A DNA stretch of 63,631 nucleotides, the filler included. It is 13 parts of 13 records of this genome, joined end to end, with 100 filler letters (N's around TTAATTAATTAA, not from the genome) between each part and the next. Parts side by side here need not be neighbours in the genome. Positions count along the whole stretch, not along the records: positions 20,795 to 24,163 come from SRR7504441_9667; 12 more parts are not named here. The stretch is one strand, 5' to 3'. Positions 19,506-24,263 of this stretch are shown piece by piece. Below the pieces are notes generated by a model, which did not search any database, was not told the DNA's origin, and worked only from the letters and a program-made list of their open reading frames with translations. A program made the position numbers and the translations under genes. Positions within the stretch are counted from its first letter, which is position 1. Each line of letters opens with the position of its first letter.

Positions 19506-20694
19506 CTAGCGGCTTGACCCCCACCATTGCTTTGCCCGCTTCTCGTCTTTGCCACGGCTGTAGTCAACTTGCTTGGAGACCTCACACTCATGCATCATTG
19601 TATCGAAGTAATGCTGCAAGATTACAATTGCGTGTGACGCCAACACAGTGTGACCACCCAATGAGACTCGCAGCACCTCGGCGCCGGCCGCATCCGCCAC
19701 ACGAGAATATGCGACTAGCTCGCTCTCGGAGAGTCCTCTGTGGTCGCCCACCACTACCACCACTCCCTTGACAGGATCCCCACTCCGCATTTGATCGCGC
19801 ACCTGCGACATCGGAATCCCATCCGCATCTAGCACTAGCATCACCACTCGACCCTCCTGGATCCCGCGCGCCTCGCTGGTCGTCAGGGCCGACTCCAGAG
19901 CCTCCGAAGTGGTCCGTTTATGCGCTTCCACCCCTCGCAAATCACTCTTGCACCACAAATCGGGCTGTGTACTCGGGTCAGCGGCTCGGCACCGCTCTGG
20001 GGCCAATAGGCCGTCCAGGCCTGTCCTTAGCCGCACCGCCAATCTGCTCTCGTCAGGCACCAGCCCGCGCGCCAGCGAGCCCGAGACTGTGAGCGTGTGT
20101 CCACTCGCCTCGAAGGAGAGGCAGACCTGGGTCGAGTGCCGGAGGCCCTGGCTCCGGAACGCTGCTGCTGAGACACACCTCACCCCGACATCTGCTCGGC
20201 CGGAACCTCGTGGGTTGGAAGGATCGAAATCCGGTGCACTCGCGCGGCCGAGCGGGACCAGGAACCGACGCCAGAAGCACGCCATCGACGGGAGGGTGCT
20301 AGAACACGGCAGGAACCTCTCTGTGAGAGATGCACCGAATGTGCAGCGCTTGGTGGTGTGTGCGCTGCCACAGTGGCCGCATTCGCCAATCATCACAAAT
20401 GCAGGCTGAACTATCCGCCTGCTCTCCAGCTTCATCGTGTCCCTACCATCCTGCTCCTCCTTCGCCTTCTTCTTCTTCTTCTTCTTCTTTTCCACTGGCT
20501 CCTCCTCAACCTCGCCATCTTCGTCTTCATCAGTGGCACTTTTCTTGCTCTTCTTCTTCTTCTTGGTTTTCTTCTTGTCTCTTTTATTATCGGTCACCTC
20601 CTCCTCGGCATCACTGTCATCCTCATCAGCTGATTTTCTCTTCTTCTTCTTCTTGGTTTTCTTTTTGTTTGTTTCCTCCTCGTCGCCCTCCTCA
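19506..20694 (-). CDS. TrmY-like (DUF358) SPOUT methyltransferase with N-terminal Lys/Glu-rich region and CCHC knuckle, 5'-truncated
   Basis: GSGRADVGVRCVSAAAFRSQGLRH, LVPDESRL, VVVVGDHRGLS and VSLGGHTVLASHAIVILQHYFD match TrmY motifs (GRxDxxxRC, PDER, GDHxG, SLxxxxLHAxHxI). Confidence 0.8.
20430..20694 (-). repeat. Imperfect coding repeats rich in (AAG)n poly-Lys and acidic tracts
   Basis: KKKTKKKKK.K.A.EDD unit seen twice plus a KKKKKKKK run; (TTC)n on the + strand. Confidence 0.7.
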
Positions 20695-21103
20695 NNNNNN
20701 NNNNNNNNNNNNNNNNNNNNNNNNNNNNNNNNNNNNNNTTAATTAATTAANNNNNNNNNNNNNNNNNNNNNNNNNNNNNNNNNNNNNNNNNNNNGTACTA
20801 GAGTACTCGTAGGATCGAGAATAAGTATTGTTACAATCTGTTGCGACCATCAAGAGAAACCGCATTTAAAGAACCGAAGAACTACGGAACTAGGCCTTCG
20901 ATTCCTTGAAATGCACCCGACACAACCCATTAAAATCTGCGAGGTACCTAATTCAACAATTACAGTCTATGCAGTATGCATGCACATGGTTTATATTGCC
21001 TAATGATGTTGTGTCCGCGTGTACGGATTTGTGGAATCATCGCTAAATTTGTGGATCATGCGCTGCATGGTGCTGATTGGTCCAATCTCAATAGGCTAGA
21101 AAA

Positions 21104-21186
21104 GGCCCTGCAGCCCATTCAGATGCGAGACCCCACCCTCCTCTGGGCAATTTGGTCTCGCATCGTCATAAAGGTTGCACGCGGCC
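21104..21186 (-). promoter_or_regulatory. Eukaryotic SECIS element (type II-like) in 3' UTR
   Basis: Minus strand reads GGCCGCGTGCAACCTTT-ATGA-C-GATGCGAGACC-AAA-TTGCCC-AGAGGA-GGGTGG-GGTCTCGCATC-T-GA-ATGGGCTGCAGGGCC. This gives an AUGA/GA kink-turn core, a perfect 11-bp helix II, unpaired AAA, an apical mini-stem, and a lower helix from the GGCC/TGCA arms. Confidence 0.9.
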
Positions 21187-21192
21187 TAGAAT

Positions 21193-21810
21193 CTAATCAG
21201 GCAGCCTCAGCCGTATTGGGCCCTTGAACTCGGCCTCCGGGTGGAGCACGCGCCCGCGCTGCGTCACCTCCACCCGGCCCTCCCGAGCCAGCGCTCGGGC
21301 CGCTCGCCTCACCGGCTCCATCAGCGCCCTCCAGCCTGTCGGGTCCTGCCGTCGGGCCACTTCACTAGGTCAGCAGCTCTTCCCCTTATCGCGCCCAGCC
21401 AGCAGCTCCAGCGTGGCCCGCTGCAGCGCCGCCGTCCCGTGCTCTCCCGGCTGCCCGGGCGACTCCGGCTGCTCGGCAGGATCGTGCAGGCACTTGCGGT
21501 CGATCGCGCCGTTGCTGCCAAACAGGACACCCTCCGCCTCGAGCAGCGCCCGCTTTCGCTTGAGTTTGGGCTGGTTGGCGCCCCACTGTCCCCCGAACCC
21601 GCCCAGCCGCAGGTCAGAGGCCACTACTCGGTGTCAGGGCACCGCCCCGGGTTGGGTCTGATCGTCGTGTGGGTTACGCCGCATCGCCCCGCCCACTGAT
21701 CGGGCGGAGCCGCCGACGGCGTTGGCCAGCCCGCCGTAGCTGCTCACCTTGCCCGGCGGGATCGCCCGCACCGCCGCATACACCCGCTCAGCGTACGCCG
21801 TCGACGCCAT
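21193..21810 (-). CDS. Putative selenoprotein: O6-alkylguanine-DNA alkyltransferase (AGT/ATL-type) domain fused to DUF3253-like domain, two in-frame UGA (Sec) codons, 205 aa
   Basis: One frame reads MASTAYAERVYAAVRAIPPGKVSSYGGLANAVGGSARSVGGAMRRNP..AVP[TGA 21634-6]HRVVASD..KRALLEAEGV..RDKGKSC[TGA 21370-2]PSEVARRQDPTGWRALMEPVRRAARALAREGRVEVTQRG..KGPIRLRLPD-TAG. A SECIS follows immediately. Confidence 0.88.
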
Positions 21811-21894
21811 CCGCGAAGAGCGGCCGTGGCGGAGGGCGCAAAGTCGCGCTCGAATCCCCGAAAAGTGCCACAAGGCAACGCGCAGCAGGGCGCC

Positions 21895-22620
21895 ATGTCG
21901 CCGGCGCTGCTGTATGGGGGCGGCACCTACGCGGTGCTGCTCGGGTCGTGGCTGGCAGTGTGCCTGTTCTTCGAGGGCTGTGAGCAGTTCGGGCTGCTCC
22001 AGGAGTACAGGATCCAGCCCGGGGCCTCCCCGCCCTCCCCGGCGCTCAAGAGGCGTGCGCTCCGTATGGCCGGAATCAACTGGGCCTGGCTGCCGGTGGC
22101 GCTCGGGCTGGCCAGCCCGGTGCTCCAGGCGATCTTCCCCGTGGACAAGCCCTTCCCGCCGCTTGGGCTGTTCGGGCTCCAGGTAGCTGGCTGCTTCATC
22201 CTGGACGACATCTGCTTCTACGCGTACCACAGGGTGCTGCACGAGAACCCAAAGCTGTACGTCAGATTCCACAAGCCGCACCACGTGTTCACCGCTCCGT
22301 TCGCCTGGACCAGCCACGCTGTCCACCCGGTCGAGATGCTGCTCCAGAGCGTCGGGGCCATGCTGGGGCCGGCGCTGCTCCGGATGCCGCTCCCGGCACT
22401 CTGGTGCTGGCTGGCGGTGCGGCAGCTGCAGGGCGTGCTCGATCATACTGGGCTGGAGCTGCCTGTGGACCCGATCGGGTGGATCCCGGGGGTGGGCGGC
22501 ACCAAGTTTCACGACGACCACCACAAGTACTTCACTGCCAATTACGCCTCGTGCTTCAGCTTCATCGACGACCTGTTTGGGACCAGGTACCAGCCGACCG
22601 GTCCCAAGAAGATGGCCTAG
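21895..22620 (+). CDS. Sterol desaturase/fatty acid hydroxylase superfamily (methylsterol monooxygenase-like)
   Basis: His boxes YHRVLH, HKPHH and FHDDHH; HPVE, DHTG, NYASCFSFIDDLFGT; hydrophobic segments. Confidence 0.9.
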   Translation: MSPALLYGGGTYAVLLGSWLAVCLFFEGCEQFGLLQEYRIQPGASPPSPALKRRALRMAGINWAWLPVALGLASPVLQAIFPVDKPFPPLGLFGLQVAGCFILDDICFYAYHRVLHENPKLYVRFHKPHHVFTAPFAWTSHAVHPVEMLLQSVGAMLGPALLRMPLPALWCWLAVRQLQGVLDHTGLELPVDPIGWIPGVGGTKFHDDHHKYFTANYASCFSFIDDLFGTRYQPTGPKKMA

Positions 22621-22870
22621 TGGCGCGTGATGACATCGGTTGAAGCGGCAGGGTGCGCACCACCCGAGATTTACCGGTACGAGTACGTCAGGCTCGCGGT
22701 ATACGAGTACCGGTAGAAGTAACAATATTCGAGTTCAAATGCTGGGAGCAATTCAGCCCAGATACGCTACATATAAAAAATAACATACAATACTCATGCC
22801 ACATATATACCTCGACGATGCACCAGTCGTGAAAATCCGTTAATTATAATAATTAAAATATATACTCGAG

Positions 22871-24116
22871 ATGCAGGCGGGGCCGCCGCTGGTGGGAACT
22901 GCCCCGCCTGCCCAGCAGGACAAGTTCGTGCTAAGTCCGCCAGCCGCGCCGGTCCCACCGTCCACCGGGCTGCTGCAGTTCCGGGCGATCTGCCAGGAGG
23001 TCGGTCTGGACAAGTCGATCCAGCGCTTTGGGCAGCTCCGCGCCTGGGACCAGCTCGGCTGGCTGCTCATTCACCAGTGCCGGCTGCGCCCAGCGGAGGC
23101 CACTGGTCTGGTCGAGGCATTCGAGGCCCTGGCGCCGTGCCTGGATCCAGAGGAGGGCCGGTGGGTCCGGCAGCTGACCTTGTTCAACAGCTGCAGTGCT
23201 GAGAACGCGCCAGCGGTGGCGGAGGCTATCGGCGTTCTCTGCCGGAATAAATTCCAAATCGAGCACCTTGAGTACATACAAAACCACTGCGCCGGGCCGG
23301 TCCCCCAGCCCCGCTGCACTGGGCTGATGTGAGAGTACAGGCGGTGGGGCCGATTGGGCTCGCGCTTAAAGCAAACCACCGGCTGCAGCGGCTTAACCTT
23401 AGCTACAACCCGCTCGGGGACGAGGGAGTCCGGGTGCTAGTGGACGGACTCCGCTGGAACGGCGCACTGGCGGCTCTGGAGCTGGTCAGTGGCCCGAATG
23501 AGGCTGTCAGACTGACGGGTAGGTGTGCTGTGGGTTTGGTGCTGTGGGACTGCGCGAGCTGGCCGATCAGCTGCTGAGCAACGGCTACTCGGCGCTGACC
23601 GAACTGGACCTCAAAGGCAACCACGACCTCTCGTCTGAGCGGGAGGTGCGCTGTGGCCTGCCTTTTTGTGGATCCGGCCGCAGGGAATTGAGGCGATTGT
23701 GAGGTCGTTGCATCAGAATCGGCGGCTAGAGAAGCTCCGGCTGGGTGGGCCGGCCGCACGGCTGGCGGTTACTCGGGCGGGCAGCCGATACCAATTTAGT
23801 GATCGGGGCGAAGTCGTCTGCGCGGAGAGCGAGCATGCACAGAGCGCTGATCGATCATCCCACGCTCACGACCGTCGACTTGGCGTCCAATCCTCTCGAC
23901 CCGGACGACCTGGCCATGCTGCTCGAAGTTGTGAAGGAGAACGTTCGGATGGTCCAGATGCTCATAGATAGGCCCGAGCCCGGAGCGCAGCATGAAAGCA
24001 TGGTCGACCGCAGCCCGGGCGTGGGAGAGGTGCACGACTTGATCATCGAGAGGTGTGAGCTGAACGAGGCGAATCAGACGCGCATGAAGAAGAGCGGCGC
24101 GAAAAAGAAGCGGTGA
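22871..24116 (+). CDS. Leucine-rich repeat protein (RNI-like), 5 exons
   Basis: LQRLNLSYNPLGDEGV, LTELDLKGN, LEKLRL, LTTVDLASNPL; introns 23300..23340 and three more of 38-40 nt; ends KKKR-TGA. Confidence 0.8.
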
Positions 24117-24263
24117 GGCGCACGCAATAGTAGCTACAGTCCGACAAGCTAGAGACCAACTGCNNNNNNNNNNNNNNNNNNNNNNNNNNNNNNNNNNNNN
24201 NNNNNNNTTAATTAATTAANNNNNNNNNNNNNNNNNNNNNNNNNNNNNNNNNNNNNNNNNNNN

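What the first reader, a model, noticed from the sequence alone, without database searches (positions are those of the whole stretch)
21196..21420. DUF3253-like domain carrying a vicinal Cys-Sec (CU) motif
Seen in sequence: LLAGRDKGKSC-TGA-PSEVARRQDPTGWRALMEPVRRAARALAREGRVEVTQRGRVLHPEAEFKGPIRLRL. From recall of the family, DUF3253 reads roughly TICPSEVAR...WRxLM..VR.AA..L...G.VEITQ.G......GPIRLR, so the TGA replaces its conserved Cys and an extra Cys precedes it. Inference: Sec at this position marks that Cys as chemically reactive. Fusion to an alkyltransferase points to DNA-damage handling for a family of unknown function. A CU pair resembles the redox selenylsulfide of animal thioredoxin reductase; a role in sensing or recycling is speculative.
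Basis: partly seen in the sequence, partly recalled or inferred. Interest (0 to 1): 0.8.

Follow-up and report, generated by a model that had tools for sequence, protein, structure and literature searches.

The report
Two-selenocysteine DNA-repair fusion gene
A marine protist gene joins a DNA-alkylation repair enzyme to a small DNA-binding-type domain of unknown function and writes the key cysteine of both as selenocysteine, which marks that unknown domain's cysteine as chemically reactive.

Summary
The minus-strand gene 21193-21810 (205 aa, no intron) encodes MGMT (PF01035) plus DUF3253 (PF11625). It has two in-frame TGA codons. One lies in the MGMT active site. The other (21370-21372) lies on the Cys that all 154 other DUF3253 proteins examined carry.

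A eukaryote-type SECIS sits 16-24 nt after the stop codon. It is the only such site in the 63.6-kb window. Frame-specific GC3 and all 23 highly conserved family columns continue past the TGA.

A DNA pattern scan found three more DUF3253 genes with TGA at this codon:
- a spliced eukaryotic gene with its own SECIS;
- a second eukaryotic contig with no SECIS found;
- one Verrucomicrobia MAG that has selA, selB and selD.

DUF3253 is therefore a Sec/Cys family that I found in no paper; Sec-MGMT is already published.

The domain is a basic winged helix, and the Sec caps the first helix of its helix-turn-helix.

The "vicinal CU" idea is weak. The preceding position is aliphatic in 134 of 155 proteins, Cys in 9, and Ile in all three other Sec forms.

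The repair link is moderate: a second, reversed, apparently independent MGMT fusion, plus photolyase and glycosylase neighbours in a minority of bacterial loci. The chemistry remains inferred.

The parts
21193..21810 (-). Whole coding sequence: 205 codons plus a TAG stop at 21193-21195. No intron. It encodes MGMT, a linker and DUF3253, with two in-frame TGA codons.
   Evidence: Translation. GC3 is 0.86, 0.85 and 0.79 in the same frame before, between and after the two TGA codons, against 0.46 GC in the 3' flank.
21526..21792 (-). MGMT / O6-alkylguanine alkyltransferase catalytic domain (residues 7-95). The N-terminal MGMT domain is absent.
   Evidence: PF01035: E 2.1e-24, 85.6 bits. TIGR00589 ogt: 61.4 bits. 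Matches to solved MGMT chains. All 13 invariant columns of 56 aligned homologues are kept.
21634..21636 (-). First TGA (residue 59), at the active-site Cys of the P-C-H-R-V motif. Here it reads P-U-H-R-V.
   Evidence: It aligns to the invariant C59 column of 56 MGMT homologues and to the PCHRV motif of solved MGMTs.
21430..21525 (-). Variable linker, rich in Pro, Gly, Glu and Gln (residues 96-127).
   Evidence: No family match. All 4 non-synonymous differences seen in contigs of other samples fall at residues 106-119.
21199..21429 (-). DUF3253 winged-helix domain (residues 128-204).
   Evidence: PF11625: E 6.8e-25. 2NS0: E 3.7e-15. AlphaFold2 model: pLDDT 95.2, TM 0.94 and rmsd 1.3 A to 2NS0. 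All 23 columns conserved at 85% or more are kept.
21370..21375 (-). TGC-TGA: Cys146 and Sec147, the 'CU' of the finding. The TGA (21370-21372) replaces the invariant Cys and lies just before the start of helix 2.
   Evidence: The TGA is unchanged in one poly-A RNA contig and one DNA contig of other samples that differ at nearby bases.
21107..21177 (-). Eukaryote-type SECIS element in the 3' UTR. It has an ATGA core, an 11-bp helix II, an AAA, an apical mini-stem (type II shape) and a TGA on the 3' side. The match begins 16 nt after the stop codon and the ATGA core 24 nt after it.
   Evidence: Rfam SECIS_1: 24.4 bits, below the gathering score of 35; E 0.047 in a 1.2-kb search; not listed at E<=1 in the whole-window search. 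Fold: -38.6 kcal/mol, z -3.43, 0 of 200 shuffles as stable. It is the only hit of my strict SECIS grammar in the window on both strands; 2 of 100 shuffles had any hit.

Best explanation
This is an intact selenoprotein gene of a marine microbial eukaryote. One 3'-UTR SECIS recodes both UGA codons as selenocysteine.

The N-terminal half is a suicide O6-alkylguanine alkyltransferase with Sec in place of its acceptor Cys. That selenoprotein family is already published.

The C-terminal half is a DUF3253 winged helix. It is strongly basic and probably binds DNA. Its one invariant Cys sits immediately before helix 2, the first helix of the helix-turn-helix, and is also Sec here.

Shown:
- the gene anatomy and the SECIS;
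- the alignment of the TGA to the invariant Cys;
- the recurrence of TGA at this codon in other lineages.

Inferred: the residue is a low-pKa nucleophile that does chemistry, because selenocysteine costs extra recoding machinery and normally replaces reactive cysteines only.

My preferred mechanism (about 25% on its own) is a second stoichiometric acceptor of alkyl or other electrophilic groups, held against the DNA backbone. MGMT plus DUF3253 would then work like the two-site Ada protein.

The Cys next to the Sec is most likely an incidental core residue.
For: Gene and coding continuity:
- Both domains score far above Pfam cut-offs.
- GC3 stays at 0.79-0.86 in one frame across both TGA codons.
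- All 23 highly conserved DUF3253 columns are kept, most of them downstream of the TGA.
- Of 10 differences in contigs from other samples, 6 are synonymous and 4 lie in the linker. The TGA at 21370-21372 is unchanged in one poly-A RNA contig and one DNA contig.

SECIS:
- The fold has z -3.43.
- It is the only grammar hit in 63.6 kb on both strands; 2 of 100 shuffles had a hit.
- Rfam SECIS_1 gives E 0.047 in the local search.

TGA is not a general sense codon here: 18 of 29 open frames of 250 codons or more end in TGA.

Recurrence of Sec at this codon:
- L001 is a three-exon eukaryotic gene with TGA at the same column. A SECIS-grammar hit lies in its 184-nt 3' UTR; 1 of 2000 shuffles had one.
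- L002 is on a eukaryotic contig.
- L010 is in a Verrucomicrobia MAG that carries selB (272.6 bits), selA (522.4 bits) and selD (301.1 bits).
- For each of the four Sec forms, at least 11 Cys forms score higher than any other Sec form. The nearest Sec form ranks 12th to 42nd of about 160.

Fold and charge:
- The model has pLDDT 95.2. The Sec lies between strand 22-23 and helix 25-32.
- Only generic winged-helix matches appear beyond 2NS0.
- Median pI of the domain is 10.9, and 62 of 68 domains have pI above 8.

Repair link:
- P0002 is a natural DUF3253-MGMT fusion in the reverse order with Cys at both sites.
- Its domains are not the closest relatives of this gene's domains: 35% identity for DUF3253 against up to 64% with other proteins.
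- Bacterial neighbours include photolyase at L021 and L023, an overlapping HhH-GPD gene at L022, and UDG at L062 and L072.
Against: - No protein-level evidence for Sec exists.
- The Rfam SECIS score is below the family's gathering score, and the hit is not listed in the whole-window search.
- Rfam scores neither the L001 SECIS candidate nor anything in L002. No SECIS was found in about 400 nt downstream of the L002 gene.
- The bacterial case is a single MAG. It is 1 of 71 strong DUF3253 matches read in 860 genomes.
- Its post-UGA hairpin is no better than shuffles (z -0.15). Three of 10 Cys homologues fold at least as stably.
- The fusion is rare. Only P0002 appeared among the best 150 of 1.84 billion representatives. 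No fragment of a like double-Sec gene was found.
- Repair genes flank only 5 of 53 bacterial loci. L021 and L023 share one gene order. Other recurring neighbours are rhodanese, a YeeE-like sulphur transporter, GST, flavin enzymes, DUF599 and DUF218. These point equally well to thiol or sulphur chemistry.
- Nothing here tests DNA binding or alkyl transfer.
- I ran no control scan for TAA or TAG at the same codon.
Confidence: 0.6

Rival explanations
1. Redox or electrophile switch. The Sec/Cys is a sensing residue. Its oxidation, persulfidation or alkylation changes DNA binding of the winged helix, or it reduces and protects the oxidation-prone active site of the partner enzyme. It would not be an acceptor in repair.
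For: - The fold resembles one-domain winged-helix regulators, including Fur/PerR, PadR and MarR types.
- Proteobacterial neighbours include rhodanese (L046, L052, L059), a YeeE-like sulphur transporter (L055) and GST (L052, L065).
- Verrucomicrobial neighbours include a flavin reductase (L024) and flavin amine oxidases (L036-L038).
Against: - The fold matches beyond 2NS0 are weak (E 0.067 or worse).
- A transcription-factor role fits poorly with a fusion to a stoichiometric repair enzyme in a eukaryote.
- The three rhodanese loci show similar gene arrangements, so they may be one event.
Confidence: 0.15
2. Cys146 and Sec147 form a vicinal selenylsulfide redox pair like the C-terminal pair of animal thioredoxin reductase, used for sensing or recycling.
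For: - The pair is really encoded.
- Cys-Cys occurs at the same two positions in 8 of 154 other family members from several groups.
- 'CU' motifs are listed for several prokaryotic selenoproteins in the table of PMC13188914 (passages read).
Against: - The preceding residue is Ile in 3 of 3 other Sec forms.
- It is I/L/V/M/A in 146 of 155 family members.
- In the model it lies in a beta strand, directly before a helix start. That is a structured site, not a flexible tail.
- Neighbouring side chains in a strand normally point to opposite sides (general knowledge, not measured here).
Confidence: 0.1
3. Metal or organometal site. The Sec/Cys, with Cys146 or across a dimer, binds a soft metal.
For: - Most bacterial members are fused to the Cys4 zinc-ribbon DUF2256.
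- The CU-motif families listed in PMC13188914 are mostly metal-binding: CopZ-like, MerB-like and MbdU.
Against: - Only one Cys is invariant in the domain.
- Stand-alone members without DUF2256 or a second Cys are common.
- The solved structure's record gives no hint of a metal in its title. I could not inspect its coordinates.
Confidence: 0.05
4. Not a selenocysteine. The TGA at 21370 is a real stop, a decaying gene or an assembly error, and the DUF3253 part is not made.
For: - There is no protein evidence.
- The window piece is a 3.4-kb contig of a metagenome-derived assembly.
- The SECIS match is below Rfam's gathering score.
- L002 lacks a detectable SECIS.
Against: - Full conservation downstream of the TGA, and unchanged frame-specific GC3.
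- The TGA is kept in two other samples' contigs that differ elsewhere.
- The SECIS lies after the downstream TAG, not after the TGA.
- The upstream TGA in the same frame sits on the MGMT acceptor Cys. That Sec position is already published for algae and marine microbes (PMC7539508, PMC2398784; passages read).
Confidence: 0.07

Closest known systems
[quoted passage not shown] 2020, PMC7539508), and the Sec-MGMT listed for marine microbes (PMC2398784; tables of PMC9312934 and PMC13188914)
   Same: MGMT catalytic domain with Sec at the acceptor Cys. In eukaryotes it is decoded through a 3'-UTR SECIS.
   Different: The passages I read describe no second Sec and no DUF3253 domain. The paper calls a GST-MSRA gene the first fusion of two selenoproteins. 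Its supplement could not be read, and Fig. 4c, which lists domains, is not held. A DUF3253 domain in some algal MDP therefore cannot be excluded.
DUF3253 (PF11625), solved as 2NS0, protein RHA04536 of Rhodococcus sp.
   Same: Full-length family match, the same fold (TM 0.94, rmsd 1.3 A), and all conserved columns kept.
   Different: - Sec replaces the invariant Cys.
- The gene is eukaryotic.
- The domain is fused behind MGMT, not to the DUF2256 zinc ribbon that most bacterial members carry.
P0002, a 252-aa metagenome protein with DUF3253 followed by MGMT
   Same: The same two domains in one chain. It is the best overall hit (E 1.6e-30) among 1.84 billion representatives.
   Different: - The domain order is reversed and both sites are Cys.
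- Its DUF3253 part is only 35% identical to this one, whereas other proteins reach 64%. The two fusions therefore look independent.
Ada of Escherichia coli (two-site suicide methyltransferase; mechanism recalled, not read here)
   Same: One chain with an MGMT-type acceptor plus a second DNA-binding module that carries a reactive Cys. This is the working analogy for my preferred mechanism.
   Different: No Ada zinc-binding domain was matched by Pfam. The NCBIfam Ada model (NF011964) matched only through its MGMT part. DUF3253 has a different fold and a single Cys that is not a zinc ligand. No transfer activity has been shown.
C-terminal Cys-Sec pair of animal thioredoxin reductase (recalled)
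   Same: Adjacent Cys and Sec in the sequence.
   Different: Here the pair is internal, at a strand-to-helix junction of a winged helix. The Cys is not conserved among Sec forms (0 of 3 others). No partner redox centre is present.

Membership tests
DUF3253 (PF11625) | Profile match above Pfam's gathering score over the whole domain | tested here: met
   87.5 bits against a cut-off of 22.1; profile positions 3-81 of 81.
DUF3253 (PF11625) | Invariant C-P-S at the start of helix 2 and W-R-x-L-M at the start of helix 3 | tested here: met
   P, S, W, R, L and M are all present. The C column is occupied by the TGA codon.
DUF3253 (PF11625) | Fold of the solved member 2NS0 | tested here: met
   AlphaFold2 model with pLDDT 95.2. 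Foldseek against 2NS0: TM 0.94, rmsd 1.3 A, E 5.7e-08.
MGMT / O6-alkylguanine-DNA alkyltransferase (PF01035, TIGR00589) | Profile match, the P-C-H-R-V acceptor motif and the other invariant residues of the catalytic domain | tested here: met
   85.6 bits and 61.4 bits. The motif reads P-U-H-R-V. All 13 invariant columns of 56 homologues are kept.
MGMT / O6-alkylguanine-DNA alkyltransferase | Alkyl transfer from DNA to the active-site residue | not testable with these tools
   Needs an assay.
Eukaryotic selenoprotein | In-frame UGA aligned to Cys in homologues, with conservation continuing downstream | tested here: met
Eukaryotic selenoprotein | SECIS element in the 3' UTR | tested here: met
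   ATGA core, 11-bp helix, AAA and GA at 21119-21169. Fold z -3.43. It is the only grammar hit in the window. Caveat: the Rfam score of 24.4 bits is below the gathering score of 35.
Eukaryotic selenoprotein | The organism has the Sec machinery (tRNA-Sec, eEFSec, SBP2, SPS2) | not testable with these tools
   No whole genome is held for this window. An earlier unchecked note reports another SECIS-bearing gene in the same assembly.
Eukaryotic selenoprotein | Selenium in the protein | not testable with these tools
   Needs 75Se labelling or mass spectrometry.
Thioredoxin-reductase-type vicinal selenylsulfide | A conserved Cys next to the Sec, on a flexible C-terminal tail that serves a second redox centre | tested here: not met
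   Ile precedes the Sec in 3 of 3 other Sec forms. Cys is at that position in 9 of 155 proteins. The position is internal, at a strand-helix junction. No redox domain is present.
Ada-type two-site methyltransferase | N-terminal Cys4-zinc methylphosphotriester acceptor domain | tested here: not met
   No Ada zinc-binding domain appears in the Pfam scan. The Ada equivalog NF011964 scores 35.9 bits against a cut-off of 345. The resemblance is functional analogy only.

The most novel reading that the evidence does not exclude
DUF3253 is an unrecognised class of DNA-bound stoichiometric acceptor. It would be a zinc-free winged-helix counterpart of the Ada N-terminal domain. Its helix-capping Cys/Sec would take alkyl or other electrophilic groups from the DNA backbone or from a partner repair enzyme. 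This protist would then have built a two-site, all-selenium suicide repair enzyme.
Probability: 0.2. Interest if true: 0.8.

Novelty: new member of a known kind. Interest (0 to 1): 0.55.

Why it matters
DUF3253 is widespread. It was found in 44 of 401 sampled Pseudomonadota genomes and 17 of 401 sampled Verrucomicrobiota genomes over the family cut-off. It has had a solved structure since 2006. Yet no paper in the searched library mentions it.

Natural Cys-to-Sec replacement is one of the few sequence-only signals that a cysteine does chemistry. Here it turns a domain of unknown function into a concrete hypothesis: a basic winged helix with one reactive nucleophile, repeatedly joined to direct-reversal DNA repair enzymes.

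This can be tested with the Cys forms from culturable bacteria.

The finding also adds a family to the selenoprotein catalogue. It gives a compact natural case of two Sec codons served by one SECIS, and it warns annotators that this gene is cut into three pieces by standard gene callers.

Tried and rejected
- **Whole-protein locus search.** The search of metagenome contigs matched 215 pattern stretches, but none was a relative. I replaced it with a degenerate DNA pattern for the Sec form. Of its 12 hits, 9 were chance matches with no DUF3253 reading frame (L003-L009, L011, L012).
- **Viral contigs.** The same pattern gave 0 hits.
- **Rfam on other loci.** L001, L002 and L010 gave no SECIS family hit, even at E<=10 on short stretches.
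- **L002 SECIS.** My own grammar found none in L002, even relaxed to 8 pairs with 2 mismatches.
- **Bacterial SECIS in L010.** The hairpin is present but not distinctive.
- **Bacterial-type hairpins in the window gene.** The 70 nt after each UGA fold no better than shuffles: z 0.17 and -0.21.
- **Whole-genome searches of the window's own assembly.** No genome is held.
- **Domain-domain docking.** Whether the two Sec sites meet stays open.
- **ESM Atlas with the natural fusion P0002.** It returned only MGMT clusters at 0.84, and no fused cluster.
- **Inter-TGA fragment.** A search for called fragments of like genes, using the 84-aa ORF between the two TGA codons, gave no hit.
- **Sequencing runs.** All holders had small shares (0.20 or less). 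Laying four runs gave only contigs of 151-381 nt. They show that the TGA is kept, but they say nothing about transcript ends, expression level or uncovered parts.
- **Supplement of the algal selenoproteome paper.** It could not be read.
- **Bacterial origin of the contig.** Considered and rejected because of the eukaryote-type SECIS, AT-rich spacers around GC-rich genes, and cover by poly-A RNA contigs.
- **General TGA reassignment.** Considered and rejected.
Full report
**What is there**

The window is a chain of 13 short contigs joined by linkers of N44-TTAATTAATTAA-N44. The finding lies on the 3.4-kb piece 20795-24163.

On the minus strand, an intronless frame runs from ATG at 21810 to TAG at 21193-21195 (205 codons) if two TGA codons are read through. 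Pfam gives two domains:
- MGMT catalytic domain PF01035: residues 7-95, E 2.1e-24, 85.6 bits, cut-off 27.
- DUF3253, PF11625: residues 128-204, E 6.8e-25, 87.5 bits, cut-off 22.1.

NCBIfam agrees on the MGMT part.

The first TGA (21634-21636) is the acceptor Cys of the P-C-H-R-V motif. The second (21370-21372) is the one in the finding. It is preceded by TGC and followed by PSEVAR.

**The TGA sits on the family's invariant Cys**

- The solved DUF3253 structure 2NS0 aligns at E 3.7e-15, with its Cys under the TGA and an Ile under the preceding Cys.
- The column is Cys in 46 of 46 aligned sequences and in 68 of 68.
- I ran a motif over the 387 proteins stored at that point, leaving this position free. 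It picked 155 DUF3253 proteins, this gene included. All 154 others have Cys.

**The TGA is read through as selenocysteine**

1. Coding signal is continuous. GC3 is 0.86, 0.85 and 0.79 in the same frame before, between and after the TGA codons. The 3' flank is 46% GC.
2. All 23 columns conserved at 85% or more in the family are kept, and most lie after the TGA.
3. A eukaryote-type SECIS match begins 16 nt after the TAG, with its ATGA core 24 nt after it. It has the ATGA core, an 11-bp helix, an AAA, an apical mini-stem and a TGA on the 3' side.
   - It folds at -38.6 kcal/mol, z -3.43, and 0 of 200 shuffles fold as well.
   - A strict SECIS grammar that I wrote finds this site and no other in 63.6 kb on both strands. 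Two of 100 block shuffles had any hit.
   - Rfam SECIS_1 scores it 24.4 bits. This is below the gathering score of 35. E is 0.047 in a 1.2-kb search, and the hit is not listed at E<=1 when the whole window is searched.
4. TGA is not a general sense codon. It ends 18 of 29 open frames of 250 codons or more.
5. Contigs from other samples carry the TGA unchanged while differing nearby. These are one poly-A RNA contig covering 21355-21601 and one DNA contig covering 21176-21433. Of 10 differences, 6 are synonymous and 4 fall in linker residues 106-119. The contigs are short and their word shares were small, so this is modest support.
6. No bacterial-type hairpin follows either UGA (z 0.17 and -0.21).

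**The same replacement elsewhere**

A degenerate DNA pattern for 'TGA-P-S-[DE]-x-x-R ... W-R-x-L-M' gave 8 metagenome loci and 4 genome loci. Nine had no DUF3253 reading frame. Three are real.

- **L001.** A three-exon eukaryotic gene with GT-AG introns for a 160-aa stand-alone DUF3253 with a basic N-terminal tail. The motif reads G-C-T-I-U-P-S. Its 184-nt 3' UTR holds the only SECIS-grammar hit of the contig, and 1 of 2000 shuffles had one. Rfam does not score it. A repeated hexamer allows an alternative pairing.
- **L002.** This lies on a GC-rich contig beside a eukaryote-type Rpn10-like gene, which I identified by reading its sequence only. It encodes a stand-alone domain reading K-S-I-U-P-S. 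I found no SECIS in the roughly 400 nt downstream, so this case is open.
- **L010.** An 84-aa stand-alone gene in a Verrucomicrobia MAG, reading A-T-I-U-P-S. That genome has selB (272.6 bits), selA (522.4 bits) and selD (301.1 bits), all over their cut-offs. However, its post-UGA hairpin is not distinctive, and it is the only case among the bacterial genomes read.

Tally of bacterial DUF3253 matches and in-frame stops:

| Sample | Genomes | DUF3253 matches | With TGA |
|---|---|---|---|
| Verrucomicrobiota phylum sample | 401 | 13 strong | 1 (G001) |
| Relatives of G001 | 61 | 16 | 1 (G001) |
| Pseudomonadota sample | 401 | 45 | 0 |

Three genomes occur in both Verrucomicrobiota samples. The total is therefore 71 distinct strong matches in 860 distinct genomes, of which 1 has TGA.

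A profile built from the family without this gene aligns all four Sec forms end to end, at 94.5 to 112.7 bits. For each of the four, at least 11 Cys forms score higher than any other Sec form; the nearest Sec form ranks 12th to 42nd of about 160. This suggests several separate switches, although an 80-residue domain resolves little.

**What the domain is**

An AlphaFold2 model of residues 124-205 has pLDDT 95.2. Its elements are helix 3-15, strand 22-23, helix 25-32, helix 37-53 and three strands, which make a winged helix. It matches 2NS0 at TM 0.94 and rmsd 1.3 A. Everything else is a generic winged helix at E 0.067 or worse: kleisin C-terminal domains, Fur/PerR, Z-alpha, PadR and MarR.

The Sec is residue 24 of the model. 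It lies immediately before the first helix of the helix-turn-helix. Cys146 is the last strand residue.

The domain is strongly basic. Median pI is 10.9, 62 of 68 domains have pI above 8, and this one has pI 11.0 and charge +6.9. Arg occupies six of the 23 columns conserved at 85% or more, five of them in 68 of 68 sequences.

From general knowledge of helix-turn-helix proteins, not tested here, the start of that first helix usually faces the DNA backbone.

**The 'CU' pair**

- The position before the Cys/Sec is I in 107 proteins, L in 15, V in 12, C in 9, A in 6 and M in 6, out of 155.
- The other three Sec forms have Ile there.
- Cys-Cys forms do exist (8 others, several groups), so the pair is not unique.
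- The pattern is that of a small hydrophobic core position.
- I therefore rate a thioredoxin-reductase-like selenylsulfide as unlikely. I cannot exclude it without coordinates.

**Link to DNA repair**

- Among 1.84 billion representative proteins, the best hit overall is P0002, a 252-aa protein with DUF3253 followed by MGMT and Cys at both sites. It is the only true fusion among the best 150. The two other two-stretch hits are MGMT-only.
- Its DUF3253 part is 35% identical to ours, against up to 64% for stand-alone proteins. The two fusions, in opposite orders, therefore look independent.
- Most bacterial members are fused to the zinc-ribbon DUF2256.
- In 23 Verrucomicrobiota loci, the neighbours within 1.5 kb include a photolyase (L021 and L023, same gene order), an overlapping HhH-GPD glycosylase (L022), flavin amine oxidases (L036-L038) and a flavin reductase (L024).
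- In 30 Pseudomonadota loci they include UDG-family genes (L062, L072) and NUDIX (L069). They also include rhodanese (3 loci), a YeeE-like sulphur transporter, GST (2), DUF599 (2) and DUF218 (3).
- Repair genes thus flank 5 of 53 loci. This is suggestive for photolyase, which is a rare gene, but it is not a general rule.
- Earlier notes of this scan on other genomes report DUF2256-DUF3253 genes inside photolyase operons of actinobacteria. I confirmed only the Verrucomicrobiota photolyase cases.

**Mechanism**

Shown: the gene anatomy, the SECIS, the alignment and the recurrence of TGA at this codon.

Inferred: the Cys/Sec is a reactive nucleophile, because Sec normally replaces only such cysteines. 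This principle is recalled, not read here.

My committed reading is a DNA-bound winged helix whose helix-capping nucleophile is a second reactive site beside the MGMT acceptor. It most plausibly accepts alkyl or other electrophilic groups stoichiometrically, in analogy to two-site Ada. My odds:
- Sec insertion at residue 147: about 0.85.
- A chemically active residue: about 0.75.
- A role in DNA-damage handling: about 0.5.
- The acceptor mechanism itself: about 0.25.

The rivals are a redox or electrophile switch, the vicinal selenylsulfide, a metal site, and a non-Sec artefact.

**What is known**

- Sec-MGMT is published. It is the 'MDP' family in algae (PMC7539508, passages read). It has one GOS sequence (PMC2398784). 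It appears in the family tables of two reviews (PMC9312934 and PMC13188914).
- An engineered Sec-MGMT is in PMC4150793 (search listing only).
- 'DUF3253' occurs in 0 papers. 'PF11625' and 'IPR021660' have 0 occurrences. 'Selenoprotein' together with 'Telonema' occurs in 0 papers.
- The algal paper's supplement and figures could not be seen, so a DUF3253 domain in a published MDP gene cannot be ruled out.

**Verdict**

This is a new selenoprotein family member with a useful functional clue. It is not a new kind of system.

Noticed in passing
window 6266-59314 (12 linkers, e.g. 20695-20794): The window is 13 contigs of 3-10 kb chained by N44-TTAATTAATTAA-N44 linkers. Features on different pieces are therefore not neighbours in the genome.
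   Followed up: partly
window 21634-21636 (-): The first in-frame TGA replaces the acceptor Cys of the MGMT motif, which here reads P-U-H-R-V. This Sec position is already published as the algal 'MDP' family and in marine microbes.
   Followed up: partly
L002 1156-1700 (-): A stand-alone DUF3253 gene on a GC-rich eukaryotic contig has TGA at the invariant Cys codon. No SECIS was detectable in about 400 nt before the next gene. The frame also ends at another TGA.
   Followed up: partly
L010 1381-1635 (-) = G001:C103: Candidate bacterial Sec form of DUF3253 in a Verrucomicrobia MAG that has selA, selB and selD. It is the only one among 71 strong bacterial matches read. Its hairpin after the UGA is not distinctive.
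   Followed up: yes
L046, L048, L052, L053, L055, L057, L059: In Pseudomonadota, DUF3253 genes recur beside DUF599 (with shared stop/start), rhodanese, DUF218 and once a YeeE-like sulphur transporter. This context points to sulphur or thiol chemistry, not DNA repair.
   Followed up: no
L001 1708-1760 (+): The SECIS candidate has a repeated AUACUC. Helix II can therefore pair in two registers. The minimum-energy fold uses the register that swallows the 3' UGA of the core.
   Followed up: no
window 21826-22620 (+): A fatty-acid hydroxylase gene (PF04116, E 3.3e-28) lies head to head with the selenoprotein gene. Their possible start codons are only about 15 to 85 bases apart, which makes a very short shared promoter region.
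   Followed up: no
window 19506-20597 (-), neighbouring contig piece: An ORF matches the putative SAM-dependent RNA methyltransferase family PF04013 (E 7.8e-12). It has a long Lys/Glu-rich N-terminal tail that runs into the linker.
   Followed up: no
P0122, P0164: Two MGMT proteins in the representative library carry an internal insert that interrupts or repeats part of the catalytic domain. They are probably unspliced introns in gene calls from eukaryotic contigs.
   Followed up: no
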